Positions 40,260 through 46,346 of a DNA stretch of 64,000 nt are shown here, one piece after another; within the stretch, counting starts at the first letter, position 1, and the number at the start of each line of letters is the position of its first letter. Source of the stretch: an uncultured Acidobacteriota bacterium (GTDB lineage Bacteria; Acidobacteriota; Thermoanaerobaculia; Multivoradales; UBA5704). The DNA lies in NCBI GenBank assembly GCA_963700145.1, contig OY969474.1, positions 1,152,001 through 1,216,000 on the forward strand. Reading direction: 5' to 3'. The translations under genes and the position numbers were made by a program. Under the pieces are notes generated by a model. It was not told the DNA's origin. It was given only the letters and a program-made list of their open reading frames with translations, and made no database searches.

Positions 40260-40335
40260 CCGTCCCTCCGCGGCGCGTAGTTTTCCAGACCGGAGCGGTC
40301 GGCGCTAGGTGGGGGTCGTGTGGCTCGTCCGCCGA

Positions 40336-41094
40336 CTAGACCTTCCGGGCGACGACGATGTCCTGGTAGTAGGGACCGGCGACGGCCTTCCAGTAGCCGG
40401 CGTGCAGGGAGACGGGCTGCAGGCCGTGACGCTCCAGATGGCGGGCCACCCAGCTCGGCTCGTAGGCGATCCCGTCCTCGGGAACGTCGGGATCGTGCAG
40501 CAGGCCTTCCTCGATCGGGTAAGAGAACGTGGGGTACGTCGTGCCGGTCCGGGCGGCCAGCCACCCGGCTTCATCGAGAAGAAAGTACGTCGAGAAGAGC
40601 CGGCCCCCGCTGCGGAGCGAGCGGGAGATCTGCGCCATGTAGTTCTGCGCCGCCCCGGGAAGGAGGTGGGTGAAGATCGAGATGGCGATGACGAGATCGA
40701 ACGACGCCGGCGGCCAGGTGAACACGTAGTGTTCCGGCGGGACCGACCCGTTGACGTTGTAAGCCGGCGTGCGGACGTCGGCATGAAAGAACTCGAATCG
40801 GCGCGGGGGCAGCTGCAAGTGCTCCGCGCACCAGTCGACGTAGACCTTCGCCGCGTCGAAGCCCACGTAGCGCCCGAACGGACCGAGGCGGTGCGACAAC
40901 GGCCAGGCGATGCGCCCCAGACCGCAGCCGACGTCCAGCACCCGATCCGAACGCCGAATCCCCGCGAGCTGCGCGATGAGCGCCACGGTGTGCTCGCCCG
41001 TCTGCCAGTAGTCCCCCGGCCCCATCCCATCCACGAGGTTGGCCGGCGGCAGCGGCGGCCGTCTGCGGTTCTGCTTCAGTGACCAGAGCGACAC
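40336..41094 (-). CDS. Class I SAM-dependent methyltransferase
   Basis: VLDVGCGLGR, FDLVIAISIFTHL. Confidence 0.85.
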   Translation of the reverse strand: MSLWSLKQNRRRPPLPPANLVDGMGPGDYWQTGEHTVALIAQLAGIRRSDRVLDVGCGLGRIAWPLSHRLGPFGRYVGFDAAKVYVDWCAEHLQLPPRRFEFFHADVRTPAYNVNGSVPPEHYVFTWPPASFDLVIAISIFTHLLPGAAQNYMAQISRSLRSGGRLFSTYFLLDEAGWLAARTGTTYPTFSYPIEEGLLHDPDVPEDGIAYEPSWVARHLERHGLQPVSLHAGYWKAVAGPYYQDIVVARKV

Positions 41095-41199
41095 ATACCT
41101 TCCTAGCGACGCCCAATGCTACTGCCGGGCTGCACGTCCACGTGCAACGCCTGGCCGATGGAATCGCCGAATCTGCGATCTGCGCTACACTCCTCACAG

Positions 41200-41679
41200 A
41201 TGGACGATTCGGGCGACTGGCTGGCGCAGAAGATCGCGGAGGACGGCGAGCGCATCCTTTCTCTGCTGCGCAGAGTCGTCGCCACCTGCGGGGTGACCCG
41301 CAAGGAGCTCGATGAGATCCTGCACAAAGGGGCGGGGTTCACGAGCGCGGTCCTGACCAGTCGGATCGAGCTCAAGCAAGAGCACGTCTCGGCGATCCTT
41401 CTCGGGCTCGGGGTCCACCCGAGCCTGTTCTACGAGGTGCTCTACCCCAGGGACCGCCCCATCGGGCCGATCGAGGCGACGGCCGATGCCGCCCGGCGGC
41501 TGGCGCTCGCCAGCCTCGGGCCGCCGCAGGTTCCGGCCCCGCCGCCGCCCGCTCCGCCGTCGCTCTCCCCCGCCGAGATCCAAGCGCTGATCGACGAGTC
41601 CGTGCGGCGCGCTCTCGCCGGCGCCGCGAGCCAGCCGCAGCGCAAGCGGCAGCCCGGCAAGCCGAAGCGCGCGCCTTAG
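41200..41679 (+). CDS. Putative XRE-like HTH regulator
   Basis: GVTRKELDEILHKGAGFTSAVLTSRIELK...ILLGLGVHP..F resembles a cro/C1-type HTH; start uncertain. Confidence 0.55.
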   Translation: MDDSGDWLAQKIAEDGERILSLLRRVVATCGVTRKELDEILHKGAGFTSAVLTSRIELKQEHVSAILLGLGVHPSLFYEVLYPRDRPIGPIEATADAARRLALASLGPPQVPAPPPPAPPSLSPAEIQALIDESVRRALAGAASQPQRKRQPGKPKRAP

Positions 41680-41691
41680 GAGGACGAACCC

Positions 41692-42228
41692 GTGGAATCC
41701 GTGAAGACAACCTCTGAATCGCGCACTTACGAAGTCAGGGCCTGGGAGTTCAACCTTCTCTTCGTCGAGCTCATTCTGCTCGCCGCACTGGCCGTCGCCT
41801 GGATCTGGTCGCTCGGCCCTAGTTTCCTCGGCGCCGGGCCGCCCTGGGCGAACGCCGCCCTGAAGGGATTTGGGTTCTTCCTCCTCGGGCTGGCGCTCTA
41901 CCCCGTGCTTTCGATCCAGAGCAGGAATTCGCACGGGCGCGAGCTGTCGCTCGGCCTCTGGATTGCCGGAGCCTTCGCGGCCTCCGTGTCACACACGACT
42001 GAGAGAGTGGCCCCTCCGGCGAGCGGCGCGGTGACGCCGCTCGCCGGCCTAGCTCAAGACGCATCCCCAATCAGGCGAATCAGGGTTGAGCGAAGATCAC
42101 GTCGTAGGTCGAAACCGGCCGCAGCTTCTCCTGCGAGTTTGACGACCAGGCGCGAGCTTGATACCGCAGGAGATTGCCGTGGGCATCTCTCCGCTCCACC
42201 GTCCTGTACGTGTACTCCAGAGCTGTGA
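41692..42228 (+). CDS. Hypothetical membrane protein (about 3 TM; 3' end doubtful)
   Basis: AGGAGG RBS; hydrophobic segments; tail overlaps the convergent gene by ~150 bp. Confidence 0.5.
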   Translation: MESVKTTSESRTYEVRAWEFNLLFVELILLAALAVAWIWSLGPSFLGAGPPWANAALKGFGFFLLGLALYPVLSIQSRNSHGRELSLGLWIAGAFAASVSHTTERVAPPASGAVTPLAGLAQDASPIRRIRVERRSRRRSKPAAASPASLTTRRELDTAGDCRGHLSAPPSCTCTPEL

Positions 42229-43030
42229 TCGCCGTCTGCGCGAGCGGCCGGATCTCAGCGGATTGCGACACGCCGTCGCGGTTCGTGTCGACCCAAACGC
42301 AAAGCTCACCGAACACGGCGTCGGCCGCGTCGATCAAGCCGTCGCCGTTGCCACCGAGTTGCAGATCATCGAGTTCGGCGAGGGCCGCATAGCCGATCTG
42401 CGCCCGCTCGCCCGACAAGAGCCGGGTAGCCCAGCCAAAGAGCTCTCCTCCATCGTCGATCACGCCATTGGCGTTGAGGTCGCGGCAGAGAAAGGCATCC
42501 TCCTCGCCGGCGCTAGTCCAGGCCAGCGCCTCGGGAGCGCCGTCGGCATCGAGATCGAACCAGGCCGGCTCCTCCGGACCGGAAAGGTGGAAACCGTTCT
42601 GGTCCAGGTCAAGAAGAATCGGACACCCATCAGGGGGCGGGCTGTCCGCCGGCAGGCAGGCTTGATTCGAGCCCCATTGGTTCGTGTAGGACGAGCCATA
42701 GATCGAGACGGTGACGCGAGCACGGTAACACTGACCGGCCGTTCCTGTATTGCGAATGTAACCGATGTATTCGCCGGCACTGACGTACGACTCCCCAGCC
42801 AGCCAGCCGCCGTCCTCCGTATCGTAGATGTAGTGGTCGCCTGCGAGCTGACACTGGGGATCCGCGTGGCCGAGGAAGTTGAAGCACTCGACCGCGGCCG
42901 AGGAGTCGATATTTTGGTTTCCGCGCCTAGTGATGGCGATCGAGCCGACCGCGTAGCTACCCTGCGAGGCCGCGGGCTGTGGAAGGGCAAAGCACGTGAG
43001 AAGCAAGGCTGCGAGGCTGCCGCGCCTCAT
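42080..43030 (-). CDS. Secreted protein with C-terminal FrpC self-processing-module (SPM)-like Ca-binding domain
   Basis: Signal peptide; CPILLDLDQNG...FDLDADG...RDLNANGVIDDGGELFG...GYAALAELD...WVDTNRDGVSQ.AE. Confidence 0.8.
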   Translation of the reverse strand: MRRGSLAALLLTCFALPQPAASQGSYAVGSIAITRRGNQNIDSSAAVECFNFLGHADPQCQLAGDHYIYDTEDGGWLAGESYVSAGEYIGYIRNTGTAGQCYRARVTVSIYGSSYTNQWGSNQACLPADSPPPDGCPILLDLDQNGFHLSGPEEPAWFDLDADGAPEALAWTSAGEEDAFLCRDLNANGVIDDGGELFGWATRLLSGERAQIGYAALAELDDLQLGGNGDGLIDAADAVFGELCVWVDTNRDGVSQSAEIRPLAQTAITALEYTYRTVERRDAHGNLLRYQARAWSSNSQEKLRPVSTYDVIFAQP

Positions 43031-43725
43031 TGACAGCCTCCTTCCGCCTGCCTCAGCTGTTCTGGCCAGCTCTCGTGCTCTGGCCAGACGATGCCGATGT
43101 CGGGAGCGACAGCCTCATAGAGAAAACGATCGAACCATGCGGCCCCAAACTCATTACGCGCCCGCACGAGTCCACGATGGCGCTTCTCGCAGAAGCCATG
43201 TGTGGCTTCGTCAATCCTCATCGAAATGCCTTCGCGCGCTGCCTTCGGTGCTCGATTGAGCTCGGCGATCAGAGCCCGGCGAGTGTTCGCCGCTGCCAGG
43301 TAGTCTCCGCCGCCGACTTGGAGGCGCACCCAAAAGTTCGCGGGCAGCCCTCCTCCAGGCGCTCGCGCCTCGACTTGCCGGCGGAAATCCTCTTGCAGTG
43401 ACACCAGTGGATGGAACGCGCGGGAGAGGAGGTGCTGGTAGACCTCCCAAGGTAGAAGCAGCTCGGGATTACGGGCTCCATTGATCACGGCAAACCCTGG
43501 CGCCGGAACAGGCCCCGGTTCGTCCTTCCTCGCGAGAGCCGCCGCGCGGCGCGCCGCGATCTGCTCGGGATCGAACCGGGCGGCCAACCGGTCTTCGGTC
43601 GTCCACTCCCACGCCGGCTTGGGAGTGGCCTCCGTCCGATCGGATGCCGCGAGCGGGAGAAGGGGGGAAAGGGAACAAAGGATCCCCAGCCATCCCGCCC
43701 TGCTGATTTCGGTAAACCTCCGCAT
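43027..43725 (-). CDS. Hypothetical exported protein, translationally coupled to the SPM-like gene
   Basis: Signal-like N-terminus; helical body; ATGA overlap at 43027-43030. Confidence 0.7.
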   Translation of the reverse strand: MRRFTEISRAGWLGILCSLSPLLPLAASDRTEATPKPAWEWTTEDRLAARFDPEQIAARRAAALARKDEPGPVPAPGFAVINGARNPELLLPWEVYQHLLSRAFHPLVSLQEDFRRQVEARAPGGGLPANFWVRLQVGGGDYLAAANTRRALIAELNRAPKAAREGISMRIDEATHGFCEKRHRGLVRARNEFGAAWFDRFLYEAVAPDIGIVWPEHESWPEQLRQAEGGCQ

Positions 43726-44018
43726 AGGATGCCCTCGGACGGAGCACCGTCCCGGTGCCGGGATTGGAACCTGCGGCTCTCGTCCTTCCTCAGTTTCTAA
43801 AGTGCGGACTTTACCGCCGGATGGGACAAAAGACAAGAAAACCGTGGAGGACGCAACAGAAACGGTCCCAGGGAGGCTGTAGAAACACCAGGAGGGGCCT
43901 CCGAGACTATCCCGCGGAGGAGTCGGCGCGTTAGCGCTCGTTGTACTTGAGGCCGCTCTCAAATGCCGAGTGCGGCGAAAGCCCCTCGGCGGGACAGCTC
44001 CGATTCCCGGCCAATGGG

Positions 44019-44257
44019 GAAGCTTCCCTTTTGAAAAGCGAAGCTTCCCCTTTGCAGAGCGAAGCTTCCCTTTTCGTTGGCGAAGCTTCCCTCTTGAAAG
44101 GCGAAGCTTCGCTTTCCGACGGCGAAGCTTGTCTTTTGGAAAGCGAAGCTTCGCTCTCGGACAGGGAAGCTTCCCCTTTGCACAGCCAAGCTTCGCTTTC
44201 CGGTGGCGAAGCTTCGCTCTTGAAAAGGGAAGCTTCGCCAACGCGTGGCGGGGCTTC
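44019..44257. repeat. Tandem array with exact 21-bp period and palindromic GAAGCTTC core (11 copies plus 1 degenerate)
   Basis: Cores start at 44019, 44040, 44061, 44082, 44103, 44124, 44145, 44166, 44187, 44208, 44229 and (44250). Confidence 0.95.
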
Positions 44258-44296
44258 CCGCCGGGGTAGCATCCACTCGCTCAGCAGCCGACGTAC

Positions 44297-45169
44297 ATGC
44301 TCCCGGAGGGTCACATGCCCGACGTGTGGGAGCCGCTGGTCCGGATCGACACCGCGCGGTGGATCGCCGCGCGGCAGCAGCTGCATGCGGCGGCGCAGGC
44401 GGCCGCGGCGCCGGGGAAGCAGCTCCTCCCCCACCAGCCGGACTTTAGCGAGCAGAGCTTCTGCTGGGACGAGGCGGCGCGGGCGCTGGCGCAGGGGGTG
44501 ATCGCCGGGCCGCGGCCGGTGCGCTCGGCGCTCCGGCCCGACCCGCCGGCCCTTCTCCTTCTCGACGGCGCAAGCCCCGCCGCACTGCGCGAGCTGCCGC
44601 TCGACGGCCTGACCCTCGAAGACGCCTTCGGCTGGCTGGAGTCCGAGCTCGCCGCGCTCCTCGGCCGCCCGGTGGCGTTCGACCGGCCGGCCGAGCCGCC
44701 GCCGCTCCCCACCGGCACCGGCGGCCGCTTCTCGACCGCCGACACCGAGGCCTTCGCGGCCCTCGCCGCCTGGTTCGCCGGCGGCCACCGGCTGCTCGCC
44801 GCCGTCGCGGCCTGCCACCCGGGGGCCGCGCCGGTGCGCTGCTGGCCGCACCACTTCGACATCGCCACCCTGCTGCCGCTCGACGAAGGCGGCGATCCGG
44901 AGACCGCGCGCTCGATCGGCGTGGGGCTCCAGCCGGGGGACGGCGCGCGGCCGGAGCCCTACCTCTACGTCACCCCCTGGCCCTACCCGGACGCCGCGCG
45001 CCTGCCGCCGCTTGCCGTGGGCTGCTGGCACATCGAGGGCTGGACGGGCGCGGTGCTGGAGGCCGAAGCTCTCGTCGCAGCGGGCATGGCGGCGGAGCAG
45101 GCGCGCCGGGCCGAGCGCTTTCTCGACGGGGCGGTCGCCGCCTGCCGGGAGCTGCTGGAACGGGACTGA
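44297..45169 (+). CDS. Hypothetical protein (DUF5996-like)
   Basis: LHAAAQ, VRCWPHHFDIA, PGD...PEPYLYVTPWP; host-like codon use. Confidence 0.65.
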   Translation: MLPEGHMPDVWEPLVRIDTARWIAARQQLHAAAQAAAAPGKQLLPHQPDFSEQSFCWDEAARALAQGVIAGPRPVRSALRPDPPALLLLDGASPAALRELPLDGLTLEDAFGWLESELAALLGRPVAFDRPAEPPPLPTGTGGRFSTADTEAFAALAAWFAGGHRLLAAVAACHPGAAPVRCWPHHFDIATLLPLDEGGDPETARSIGVGLQPGDGARPEPYLYVTPWPYPDAARLPPLAVGCWHIEGWTGAVLEAEALVAAGMAAEQARRAERFLDGAVAACRELLERD

Positions 45170-45188
45170 GACCCTGGGAGGAGGAACG

Positions 45189-46346
45189 ATGGCCGACGAA
45201 CGCTGGGTCGAGCTGGGAGACGTCGAGGAGCTCAAGCACCCGCCCTTGCGGCAGGTCACGATCGGCCGCACCCGCATCGCGCTCTCCTGGCGGGACGGCC
45301 GCTTCGGCGCCGTCTCCGGCGCCTGCAACCACGTCGGCGGGCCGCTCGGTGAGGGGACGCTCGACGGCGACTACGTCGTCTGCCCCTGGCACCACTGGAA
45401 GTTCCACCGCGCGACCGGCGAGGGGGAGCCCGGCTTCGAGGCCGACCGCGTGCCGCGCTACGAGCTGCGCGAGGAGGGCGGGAAGCTCCTCGTCAACCTC
45501 GCGCCGGCGACCCGGCGCAACAAGCTGCCGCACGCGCCGCACCCGCTCACCCGGCCGCTCGAGCGGGCGCCGGGGCCGGTGCGCCTCTTGGGGATCTCGA
45601 CGACGGCGATGGACAACGCGTACCCGCGCTACTCGACCTCGGACGCCCTCCTCGAGAGCGCCCTGGCGGCCGCCGGCGAGCACGGCGCCGAGACCAAGCT
45701 CGTGCGCCTGCGCGACCTCCGCTTCCGCGCCTGCGAGGGCTACTACTCGAAGGCCGCCCACGCCTGCACCTGGCCCTGCTCGATCACCGAGATGGACCCG
45801 CAGGACCAGATGGACGCGGTCTACGAGGGGATGGTCCACTGGGGGGACGTGCTGCTGCTCTCGACGCCGATCCGCTGGGGGTCGGCGAGCTCGCTCTTTT
45901 TCAAGATGGCCGAGCGCCTCAACTGCGTGCAGAACCAGGTGACGATCGGCAACCGCGTCCTGCTGCGCAACAAGGTGGCGGCGTTCATCATCACCGGCGG
46001 CCAGGACAACGTCCAGTCAGTGGCCGGGCACCTCCTCGGCTTCTTCGGCGAGCTGGGGTACCTCTTCCCGCAGTTCCCTTACGTCGCCCACAGCCGCGGC
46101 TGGTCGGCCGAGGACATGGAGCGCAACGTCGCCTTCGTGCAGCAGAGCCGCGCGCTGCACGAGGGGGCGGCGGCCCTCGCCCGCCGCGCGGTGGACATGG
46201 CGGGCCTGCTCCTCGCCGCCCACGCCGCCGAGGCGCCGCGGGTCGAGCGCGCCGGCCGCAAGGGGTGCCCGCCGACGATGCACGAGTCCCCGGCCAAGGC
46301 CGCGGCGGAGACCGAAGCGGCCGCCGCCGCGCCCCCCGGCGGCTGA
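45189..46346 (+). CDS. Rieske [2Fe-2S] domain fused to flavodoxin-like NAD(P)H oxidoreductase
   Basis: CNH...CPWH; then ACEG...CTWPC, STPIRWG, GGQD; GGAGGAGG RBS. Confidence 0.85.
   Translation: MADERWVELGDVEELKHPPLRQVTIGRTRIALSWRDGRFGAVSGACNHVGGPLGEGTLDGDYVVCPWHHWKFHRATGEGEPGFEADRVPRYELREEGGKLLVNLAPATRRNKLPHAPHPLTRPLERAPGPVRLLGISTTAMDNAYPRYSTSDALLESALAAAGEHGAETKLVRLRDLRFRACEGYYSKAAHACTWPCSITEMDPQDQMDAVYEGMVHWGDVLLLSTPIRWGSASSLFFKMAERLNCVQNQVTIGNRVLLRNKVAAFIITGGQDNVQSVAGHLLGFFGELGYLFPQFPYVAHSRGWSAEDMERNVAFVQQSRALHEGAAALARRAVDMAGLLLAAHAAEAPRVERAGRKGCPPTMHESPAKAAAETEAAAAAPPGG

What the first reader, a model, noticed from the sequence alone, without database searches (positions are those of the whole stretch)
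44019..44257. 21-bp-period doubly palindromic array, reading the same heptad on both strands
Seen: 11 units plus one degenerate unit of GAAGCTTC + 13 variable nt, with no indels. The variable part is itself quasi-palindromic (CCTTTTGAAAAGC, CCTCTTGAAAGGC, TCTTTTGGAAAGC), giving a dyad every 10.5 bp. All 13-mers differ. The ORF track shows five of six frames open across it, and both strands spell EAS(L/P)xxx heptads (a possible 113-aa ORF at 43931-44272, minus strand). It sits at the edge of the lower-GC island. Inference: a helically phased protein-binding or cruciform array, a processed structured-RNA array, or a bidirectional coiled-coil microgene. It is not a CRISPR.
Basis: partly seen in the sequence, partly recalled or inferred. 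Interest (0 to 1): 0.75.

Follow-up and report, generated by a model that had tools for sequence, protein, structure and literature searches.

The report
Phased palindrome array, orphan of gene-linked family
The 21-base repeat array is real and non-coding, and it is one copy of a repeat family whose founding copy always sits in front of a small, uncharacterised coiled-coil protein gene found only in this group of soil Acidobacteria, so it is probably a row of protein docking sites.

Summary
There are 11 exact-phase 21-bp units (GAAGCTTC plus 13 nt) and one decayed unit at 44019-44270.

It is not a microgene. Sister arrays carry stops in most or all frames.

It is one of 6 'type A' arrays and of about 100 arrays with a 21-bp-multiple period in this 5.46-Mb Thermoanaerobaculia genome. 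These arrays use many different cores.

All 16 paralogs of an uncharacterised 123-141-aa helical protein (here 'F1') have such an array 50-130 bp upstream. Each array has its own core. 47 of 79 intergenic arrays match one of these gene-linked types.

The window's array is an orphan:
- It is 92.5% identical to the F1-linked type A array 250 kb away.
- It has no flank homology with that copy and no F1 remnant beside it.
- It lies at the edge of a strain-specific island.
- A congener has an array at the same site, but with reshuffled units.

F1 occurs in 22 of 24 genomes of the same family and in 0 of 16 genomes of sister families. It is predicted to form an antiparallel rod-like dimer.

Best reading, which is inferred: a double-stranded DNA docking lattice, probably for F1 dimers.

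Rivals: a selfish hairpin satellite, and RNA hairpins.

Earlier reports of this scan found similar gene-plus-array modules on other Thermoanaerobaculia DNA. My searches found nothing in print.

The parts
44019..44249 (.). Eleven in-phase 21-bp units. Each is a core (GAAGCTTC or a one-base variant) plus a 13-nt quasi-palindromic spacer. Two spacer classes alternate, which gives a 42-bp super-period.
44250..44270 (.). Decayed terminal unit (GGGGCTTC...). Homology with the F1-linked sister array ends inside it, at about 44259.
40315..44012 (.). Lower-G+C, strain-specific island that ends at the array. In congener G004 it is replaced by about 670 bp, while the flanks are 94% identical.
41200..41679 (+). 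Island gene. It is 59% identical over 90 aa to a protein encoded 2.2-2.7 kb upstream of F1 paralog 2032990, so the island shares content with F1 cassette neighbourhoods. No Pfam family was found for this ORF.
43027..43725 (-). Left neighbour: a 232-aa ORF with a signal-peptide-like start and no Pfam family. Its 5' end faces the array, 293 bp away.
44297..45169 (+). Right neighbour: a 290-aa ORF with no Pfam family, starting 38-48 bp after the array. It is not an F1 gene. The same arrangement is kept in G004.

Best explanation
SHOWN
- The array is non-coding DNA.
- It is an 'orphan' copy of the type A family (6 arrays). That family belongs to a genome-wide set of about 100 tandem arrays with a 21-bp-multiple period.
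- Each of 16 paralogous genes for a small helical protein (F1, 123-141 aa, no known family) is preceded by its own array type.
- Orphan arrays of the same types are scattered through intergenic DNA.
- The window's array is nearly identical to the array in front of the type A F1 gene at genome position 1.445 Mb.
- Arrays keep their place between species, but their units are reshuffled and exchanged between loci.
- The core stays invariant while the spacer drifts.

INFERRED
- The array works as double-stranded DNA: a row of docking sites spaced exactly two helical turns apart, so that all sites face one side of the helix.
- The most likely occupant is the F1 protein.
- F1 is predicted to form an antiparallel coiled-coil dimer. 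The long helix has about 60 residues, so the rod is roughly 90 A by arithmetic.
- The two ends of such a dimer could reach neighbouring cores about 71 A (21 bp) apart.
- Ends of adjacent dimers would meet on each palindromic core, and the dimer's own two-fold axis would lie on the spacer dyad.
- This would explain a dyad every 10.5 bp.

What occupancy achieves is not known. Possibilities are control of the F1 gene itself, silencing or insulation at island borders, or titration.
For: Not coding: sister type A arrays have stops in 4, 5 or 6 of 6 frames.

Family: 106 successive AAGCTT spacings are exactly 21 bp. GAAGCTTC occurs 167 times against 37 expected from base composition. Of 175 tandem arrays of at least 100 bp, 103 have a period that is a multiple of 21. 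83 of those 103 lie outside my crude gene calls.

Constraint on the core: across 71 type A units, positions 2-7 (AAGCTT) are kept in 67-71 units, while spacer positions split about 50/50.

Gene link:
- 16 F1 paralogs were found, and 16 of 16 have a tandem array within 450 bp upstream.
- 47 of 79 intergenic arrays match one of 13 F1-linked types at 16 or more of 21 positions. Only 1 of 395 shuffled consensuses does so.
- Type A has 6 arrays, of which 1 is F1-linked.

Sister copy: 92.5% identity over 241 bp with no flank homology.

The unit array + leader + F1 + terminator (about 780 bp) recurs at non-orthologous loci in congeners. Identity between copies is 30-96% per 30-column window in the array (mostly 60-86%), against 80-100% in the conserved part of the F1 coding sequence.

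Lineage: F1 is present in 22 of 24 genomes of the family, at 4-48 copies, and in 0 of 16 genomes of other families of the order. In 18 of 30 F1 loci (2 of them from this genome) the best upstream self-match is at least 0.55 at lag 20, 21, 40, 41 or 42.

Dimer: ipSAE is 0.73 against a best control of 0.00. That mark was reached by 20 of 30 proteins solved as pairs and by 1 of 23 solved as single chains. The three runs agree in at least 86% of contacts, and partner pLDDT is at least 85. The contacts are antiparallel, centred on residues 54-58. The AF2 monomer has pLDDT 86.6 and a helix at residues 28-87.
Against: No experiment or model shows that F1 binds DNA. It has no recognisable DNA-binding fold and no PDB match.

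Three F1 paralogs that are closely similar to one another, with an almost unchanged basic stretch (compared by eye on the alignment; no pairwise identities were computed), sit behind arrays with quite different cores and different arm spacing. By eye, the centres are 2, 3 and 7 nt. That is hard to reconcile with F1 reading the core sequence.

The basic tail is not conserved across paralogs.

Two F1 paralogs have non-palindromic arrays, and one has a 20-bp period.

32 of 79 arrays match no F1-linked type.

The rod-length argument is arithmetic, not a measurement on the model.

This array itself has no F1 gene beside it, so any role here depends on action in trans.
Confidence: 0.45

Rival explanations
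1. Selfish or structural satellite. Hairpin-prone palindromic tandem repeats persist and spread by slippage, unequal exchange and ectopic gene conversion, and have no cellular function. The 21-bp period is inherited from a common ancestor array. The link with F1 exists because the array is simply part of the F1 gene's mobile unit, and orphans are its debris.
For: Turnover is rapid. The orthologous array in G004 is only about 78% alike and not alignable unit by unit, while the flanks are 94% identical.

There has been recent exchange between loci.

Arrays occur in all intergenic contexts with little bias: 22 convergent, 18 divergent and 43 co-directional of 83. The baseline is 465, 514 and 1762 of 2741 gaps.

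Near-identical F1 paralogs have unrelated cores.

21-bp arrays built on a control palindrome are also common across phyla (65 loci).
Against: The core is invariant while the spacer varies within the same units. Homogenisation alone does not explain this.

Orphan arrays keep their position between species.

16 of 16 F1 genes, and many F1 genes in other genera, keep an array upstream even though its sequence changes.

No REP-type (Y1) transposase is encoded.
Confidence: 0.25
2. Docking array for another sequence-specific factor, not F1. Examples would be a regulator or a modification or restriction-type enzyme that recognises AAGCTT-containing palindromes. In this reading F1 is the regulated gene rather than the reader.
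For: The core is invariant.

F1 shows little variation between paralogs whose arrays have different cores.

The arrays lie 50-130 bp upstream of the F1 ribosome-binding sites, where an operator or activator site would be expected.
Against: More than a dozen different cores would need as many readers.

The only gene that always travels with an array is F1.

The Xre-type regulators found in some cassettes are nearly identical in two cassettes whose arrays differ.
Confidence: 0.15
3. RNA-level element. The array is transcribed, as a leader of F1 or as an untranslated region, and forms a string of short hairpins. These stabilise or insulate mRNA, or are bound by the arginine-rich tail of some F1 paralogs.
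For: Each unit can form a stem of about 8 bp with a 4-nt loop (read from the sequence). Folding energy is very low, about -130 kcal/mol for 223 nt.

In 9 of 16 modules a small gene on the same strand precedes the array, so read-through transcription is plausible.

Some F1 tails are arginine-rich.
Against: There is no strand preference in folding energy relative to gene direction: 16 vs 20, with 7 ties.

From the energies and the F1 strands, my own tally for the 10 F1-linked arrays listed is 5 sense, 5 antisense.

This array lies between two divergent gene starts.

The loop positions (AGCT) are as invariant as the stem.

The Rfam hits are only sub-threshold miRNA look-alikes on both strands.
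Confidence: 0.12
4. A translated heptad-repeat microgene on one or both strands.
For: Five of six frames are open in this copy.

In the related G+C-rich type B arrays, variation peaks at every third position of the EAS frame. One type B array lies in frame inside a 1106-aa ORF.
Against: No frame is open in all six type A arrays. One has stops in all six frames.

There is no start codon with a ribosome-binding site.

The invariance is at the DNA level and includes would-be synonymous sites.
Confidence: 0.03

Closest known systems
Centromere-like or iteron arrays next to the gene of their binding protein (F plasmid sopC-SopB, R1 parC-ParR, pSK1 par, P1 incA-RepA). This comparison is recalled from established knowledge and was not tested here.
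   Same: Both are tandem, helically phased repeats directly beside a small gene. Each paralogous system has its own repeat sequence, as incompatibility groups do. Extra arrays elsewhere could titrate the protein.
   Different: Here the system is chromosomal, with 16 modules and about 60 orphan arrays in one genome. No partition NTPase or replication initiator travels with the about-780-bp unit. The protein has no known DNA-binding fold. Binding is not shown.
REP/BIME elements of enterobacteria and REPINs mobilised by RAYT transposases (recalled).
   Same: Both are short palindromic units clustered in intergenic DNA. Both are fast-evolving and are favoured landing sites for IS elements.
   Different: These arrays have a strict 21-bp head-to-tail period with no indels. 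The core is invariant and the spacer variable. No Y1/RAYT gene is present in the genome. There is no bias towards gene 3' ends.
ARG-box pairs of ArgR operators and other multi-dimer operators with a 21-bp centre-to-centre distance (recalled).
   Same: Palindromes are spaced two helical turns apart, so that bound dimers lie on one face of the DNA.
   Different: Operators have two boxes, not 11. They are not dispersed as families of arrays and are not subject to unit turnover.
Gene-plus-phased-array modules reported earlier in this scan in other Thermoanaerobaculia genomes (e1-719954, e1-1156259, e1-3596841, e1-1203193).
   Same: A small coiled-coil, partly arginine-rich protein gene is paired with a 20-21-bp phased array, several times per genome.
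   Different: Those notes place the array after the gene's terminator. In this genome all 16 arrays lie upstream of the gene. The finding here is an orphan array without the gene. I could not check whether the proteins are the same family, because a sequence look-up in the scan's notes found nothing.

Membership tests
CRISPR array | Repeats of about 21-48 bp separated by unrelated spacers of similar length | tested here: not met
   The conserved part is 8 bp. The 13-nt intervals are related to one another and fall into two alternating classes.
REP/BIME or REPIN | A cognate RAYT (Y1 transposase, PF01797) encoded in the genome | tested here: not met
   0 matches in the window's own genome. The same search scores in 6 of 14 control genomes.
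REP/BIME or REPIN | Palindromic units in intergenic DNA, preferentially after gene 3' ends | tested here: inconclusive
   The arrays are intergenic (83 of 103). Convergent contexts are only mildly enriched: 22 of 83 against 465 of 2741 gaps. My gene calls are crude.
Iteron or partition-centromere array with cognate binding protein | A tandem phased array directly beside the gene of a small protein, with a system-specific repeat sequence | tested here: met
   This holds for the family: 16 of 16 F1 genes have an array, each with its own type. It does not hold for this copy, which has no F1 gene or remnant within 1 kb.
Iteron or partition-centromere array with cognate binding protein | A partner NTPase (ParA, ParM or TubZ) or Rep initiator in the same unit | tested here: not met
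   The recurrent unit holds only the array, a leader, F1 and a terminator. The cassette neighbours scanned against Pfam gave an Xre HTH, a TPR protein and unknowns.
Iteron or partition-centromere array with cognate binding protein | The protein binds the repeats | not testable with these tools
   Only a homodimer prediction was possible.
Heptad-repeat protein gene | One reading frame kept open across related copies, with variation mainly at synonymous sites | tested here: not met
   Stops are present in 4 to 6 frames in three of the six type A arrays. The core is invariant at all three codon positions.
Thermoanaerobaculia F1-linked phased arrays (defined here) | Tandem units with a 20-21-bp or 42-bp period, matching the array type in front of an F1 paralog | tested here: met
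   The 21-bp consensus matches 17 of 21 positions of the F1_1445307-linked type. Identity is 92.5% over 241 bp.

The most novel reading that the evidence does not exclude
A lineage-specific chromosomal 'address' system. Each of up to 48 paralogous rod-shaped F1 dimers per genome polymerises on its own family of arrays. The length of the protein rod sets the 21-bp period, and the two symmetry axes of the filament are imprinted on the DNA as a dyad every 10.5 bp. The arrays mark or insulate the borders of exchangeable islands and act as swap points for gene cassettes. This would be a new kind of bacterial chromatin or genome-plasticity element.
Probability: 0.2. Interest if true: 0.9.

Novelty: new variant of a known kind. 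Interest (0 to 1): 0.68.

Why it matters
One family of soil Acidobacteria devotes about 100 intergenic sites per genome to rigidly phased arrays. It also carries 4-48 copies per genome of an unknown small protein gene that always comes with such an array.

If the protein docks on the arrays, this is an unrecognised, highly diversified DNA-protein pairing system on a chromosome. It would have built-in examples of specificity divergence between paralogs and a structural explanation for a two-turn repeat.

The arrays also coincide with borders of strain-specific islands and with IS insertions, so they may shape genome plasticity.

In practice, these arrays break short-read assemblies. One relative's contig starts about 290 bp beyond the array. 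They also generate spurious ORFs on both strands.

Tried and rejected
RAYT/REP hypothesis: no PF01797 match in the genome.

Cross-phylum conserved system: GAAGCTTC x3 at 21-bp spacing gave at least 109 loci in many phyla. The control palindrome CTTCGAAG gave 65. Most distant hits are therefore background 21-bp repeats. Only the Thermoanaerobaculia enrichment stands: by my count of record titles, 26 of the 80 listed loci carry that name, against 1 of 65 for the control.

Neighbour-gene clustering with my first crude gene calls found no shared family; the largest cluster had 6 of 333 proteins. It missed F1 because the small genes were not called. The link appeared only when relatives' loci were blasted back.

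RNA evidence: no RNA holder was listed, so nothing can be said about expression.

Read laying used DNA contigs only. One contig of run X1 skips 42 bp (two units, 44018 to 44061). This may be a population variant or an assembly collapse.

Rfam: only sub-threshold miRNA-like hits on both strands.

The sigma-70 promoter scan found 0 sites in 43500-44500. The 'terminator-like' sites are the repeat units themselves.

F1 annotation:
- No Pfam, NCBIfam or PHROGs family.
- Foldseek against the PDB gave nothing at E of 0.001 or better.
- ESM Atlas and homologue searches returned only 'hypothetical protein'.

SymE-like small genes: 15 in the genome, but only 2 abut an array. This is not a general partner.

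A sigma-54 promoter in the F1 leader was looked for by eye only. None was convincing.

Full report
1. THE OBSERVATION

Tandem Repeats Finder reports period 21, 10.4 copies and no indels at 44019-44236, with 42- and 63-bp super-periods.

In register there are 11 units of an 8-mer core plus 13 nt from 44019. Nine cores are GAAGCTTC and two differ by one base. A decayed 12th unit starts at 44250.

GAAGCTTC occurs 10 times in the window, 9 of them here. The mean in 100 shuffles is 0.96, and none reaches 10.

All 13-mers differ. Five of six frames are open, and both strands read EAS-heptads. The latter follows automatically from the palindrome.

The second dyad is also real. Put in one orientation, type A spacers alternate between a TTGAA-centred class and a TCCGG-centred class, both quasi-palindromic.

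G+C is 0.58-0.66 left of the array and 0.74-0.79 right of it.

2. IT IS ONE OF MANY

The window is part of a single 5.46-Mb contig with 71.5% G+C. Earlier notes of this scan and the titles of related records call it a soil Thermoanaerobaculia bacterium (Acidobacteriota).

Genome-wide, 106 successive AAGCTT sites are exactly 21 bp apart. GAAGCTTC occurs 167 times against about 37 expected from base composition.

There are three AAGCTT-based types:
- Type A has an A+T-rich quasi-palindromic spacer. It has 6 arrays, including this one.
- Type B has a G+C-rich, strand-asymmetric spacer.
- Type C has an AAAGCTTT core between CCCG and CGGG arms.

A full TRF run shows that the 21-bp period is general. 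Of 175 non-overlapping arrays of at least 100 bp, 103 have a period that is a multiple of 21, totalling 24.5 kb. A few of those with 126- and 147-bp periods lie inside genes and are probably coding repeats. The arrays use more than a dozen unrelated cores, mostly palindromes with arms of about 5 bp.

83 of the 103 lie outside my crude gene calls.

They occur in every intergenic context: 22 convergent, 18 divergent and 43 co-directional. The baseline is 465, 514 and 1762 of 2741 gaps.

3. NOT A GENE AND NOT DETECTABLY AN RNA

Of the six type A arrays, one has stops in all six frames, one in five and one in four. No frame is open in all six.

The core is invariant at every position. AAGCTT is kept in 67-71 of 71 units, while spacer positions split roughly in half. 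The constraint is therefore on DNA sequence, not on codons.

For RNA:
- Both strands of this array fold equally well (-129 vs -133 kcal/mol).
- Among 43 arrays between co-directional genes, the sense strand is more stable in 16, the antisense in 20, and 7 are ties.
- Rfam gives only sub-threshold miRNA look-alikes on both strands.
- No RNA run holds the region, so expression is untested.

Type B arrays show a faint third-position pattern in the EAS frame, and one lies in frame inside a 1106-aa ORF. Some G+C-rich arrays may therefore be tolerated inside genes. This does not apply to type A.

4. HOW IT EVOLVES

Within the genome, the array (genome 1196019-1196259) is 92.5% identical over 241 bp to the reverse complement of the array at 1445391-1445631. 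Nine successive units match with 0-2 differences each, and there is no homology in either flank.

In congener G004 the flanks are 94% identical and an array sits at the same place. Its 13 units cannot be aligned one to one with ours, and overall similarity is about 78%.

On the left, window 40315-44012 is replaced by about 670 bp in G004. The array therefore marks the border of a strain-specific island.

The type A array at 137 kb likewise has strain-specific segments on both sides when compared with G003 and G004.

Position is thus conserved, while content turns over by unit shuffling and exchange between arrays.

One metagenome contig lacks exactly two units. This is weak evidence, because it could be an assembly collapse.

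5. THE GENE LINK

Blasting relatives' type A loci back onto this genome showed that in five of them the array is followed by a homologue of a 127-aa ORF. In this genome that ORF lies next to the 1.445-Mb array.

A profile search of the six-frame translation finds 16 paralogs ('F1', 123-141 aa).

All 16 have a tandem array within 450 bp upstream, ending 50-130 bp before a good ribosome-binding site. Each array has a different unit:
- Most have a 21-bp period.
- One has a 42-bp palindrome.
- One has a 20-bp period.
- Two have non-palindromic direct repeats.

47 of 79 intergenic arrays match the array type of one of 13 F1 paralogs at 16 or more of 21 consensus positions. Only 1 of 395 shuffled consensuses reaches that score. 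A typical family is one gene-linked array plus 2-5 orphans. Type A has 1 linked array and 5 orphans.

32 arrays match none. Some of these are obvious near-misses of types B and GTATC; others have no F1 partner.

No F1 remnant lies within about 1 kb of any orphan type A array, including ours.

The recurrent unit is array + leader + F1 + terminator hairpin, about 780 bp. It sits at non-orthologous loci in G003 and G004. Between copies, the conserved part of the F1 coding sequence is 80-100% identical per 30-column window. The array ranges from 30% to 96%, mostly 60-86%.

6. THE F1 PROTEIN

F1 has no Pfam, NCBIfam or PHROGs family. Homologues are annotated only as hypothetical proteins of Thermoanaerobaculia. 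There are 1312 representative clusters at E of 0.001 or better.

AF2 (pLDDT 86.6) gives a short helix, a 60-residue helix (28-87), a short helix, then a disordered proline-rich tail that is basic in some paralogs only. Foldseek finds no PDB match.

A two-copy prediction passes its controls:
- ipSAE is 0.73 against a best control of 0.00.
- That mark was reached by 20 of 30 proteins solved as pairs and by 1 of 23 solved as single chains.
- The runs agree in at least 86% of contacts, and pLDDT is at least 85.
- The contacts describe an antiparallel dimer with its two-fold axis near residues 54-58.

F1 is present in 22 of 24 genomes of the same family, at 4-48 copies, and in 0 of 16 genomes of other families of the order.

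In 18 of 30 F1 loci examined (2 of them from this genome) the best upstream self-match is at least 0.55 at lag 20, 21, 40, 41 or 42. In 6 of 30 the best lag is elsewhere.

7. HOW IT MOST LIKELY WORKS

The following are shown:
- a non-coding array with an invariant core;
- exact two-turn phasing;
- position conserved between species;
- a family structure of one gene-linked array plus orphans;
- an obligate array in front of every F1 gene across a bacterial family.

The rest is inferred. The arrays are docking lattices on double-stranded DNA, and F1 is the best candidate occupant.

A rod-like antiparallel dimer about 90 A long (60 residues x 1.5 A) has two equivalent ends that could reach cores 71 A (21 bp) apart. 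Ends of adjacent dimers would meet on each palindromic core. The dimer axis would fall on the spacer dyad. This accounts for a dyad every 10.5 bp. It is arithmetic and inference, not a modelled complex.

Against F1 as the sequence reader:
- Three closely similar paralogs (2032990, 3387763, 3106709) with an almost unchanged basic stretch face arrays with different cores and arm spacings. I compared them by eye on the alignment and computed no pairwise identities.
- Two cassettes with near-identical Xre regulators also differ in array.

So either few residues set specificity, or F1 recognises shape and phase rather than sequence, or the cores are read by something else or by nothing.

I therefore give the docking-lattice-with-F1 reading 0.45. 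The rivals are a selfish satellite at 0.25, another reader at 0.15, RNA at 0.12 and coding at 0.03.

8. COMPARISON WITH WHAT IS KNOWN

The nearest known kinds are plasmid iteron or centromere arrays beside the gene of their binding protein, and REP/BIME clusters. This comparison comes from established knowledge, not from a call.

The first lacks its defining partner here. There is no NTPase or Rep in the unit, and binding is untested.

The second fails on RAYT and on architecture.

CRISPR is excluded.

GAAGCTTC arrays at 21-bp spacing in other phyla are mostly background. A control palindrome gives 65 loci against at least 109. Only the Thermoanaerobaculia enrichment is meaningful.

Literature:
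- A full-text search for the core plus 'repeat' listed 20 of 1116 papers, none relevant by title or abstract.
- '21-bp + tandem repeats + palindromic + intergenic + bacterial' gave 3 irrelevant papers.
- 'Thermoanaerobaculia + tandem repeat' gave 0.
- I read no paper beyond these listings.

Earlier reports of this scan described similar small-gene-plus-phased-array modules in other Thermoanaerobaculia genomes, and other 21- and 42-bp arrays in this genome. I reached the gene link before reading them. They agree with it, but they are not independent evidence.

9. VERDICT

The element is an orphan member of an undescribed, lineage-specific array-plus-gene system. Its function is still inferred.

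Noticed in passing
genome G000:C1 5033497-5034821, 2946139-2947463, 748331-749655, 4825741-4827065, 5025158-5026482 (outside the window): A 1325-bp IS3-like element (two overlapping ORFs of 118 and 281 aa) has five copies, four identical and one 99.9% identical. One splits a type B array. One abuts a type C array. Two more lie within 500 bp of other arrays. The arrays may therefore be preferred IS targets.
   Followed up: partly
genome G000:C1 1468975-1469185 (outside the window): A type B array lies in frame inside a 1106-aa ORF. The ORF has a signal peptide and a large C-terminal domain, and the array would encode a proline-rich EAS-heptad linker. A second type B array (2324411) is in frame with the membrane protein downstream. 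Some arrays may be tolerated, or used, inside genes.
   Followed up: partly
genome G000:C1 602910-603023 and 2879975-2880121 (outside the window): SymE-like (PF08845) small ORFs number 15 in the genome. Two end within 50 bp of a phased array.
   Followed up: partly
genome G000:C1, modules at 2032990, 3106709, 3387763 and 3889926: Four F1 modules sit in paralogous cassettes of about 6-8 kb. Each cassette holds, in order, an Xre-type HTH gene, a TPR protein, a 260-aa protein with a cysteine-rich N-terminus, a 71-aa protein, the array, F1, and four further proteins of unknown family. The nature of the cassette is unknown.
   Followed up: partly
genome G000:C1 257834-258236 and 2660826-2661238: Two loci carry a non-palindromic 21-bp array directly followed by its own reverse complement. 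This forms a large inverted repeat of arrays.
   Followed up: no
window 40336-41094 (-): A class I SAM-dependent methyltransferase gene (Methyltransf_25, E 1.8e-12) lies at the left end of the strain-specific island that the array closes on the right.
   Followed up: no
window 45012-46346 (+): This ORF fuses a Rieske [2Fe-2S] domain with an FMN_red flavin reductase domain. It lies just downstream of the array's right-hand neighbour.
   Followed up: no
loci L148, L171, L181, L182 (Candidatus Accumulibacter record) and several Sandaracinaceae, Polyangiaceae and Phycisphaerae loci: Multi-locus 21-bp arrays built on other palindromes occur in unrelated phyla. Whether these also pair with a small gene was not examined.
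   Followed up: no
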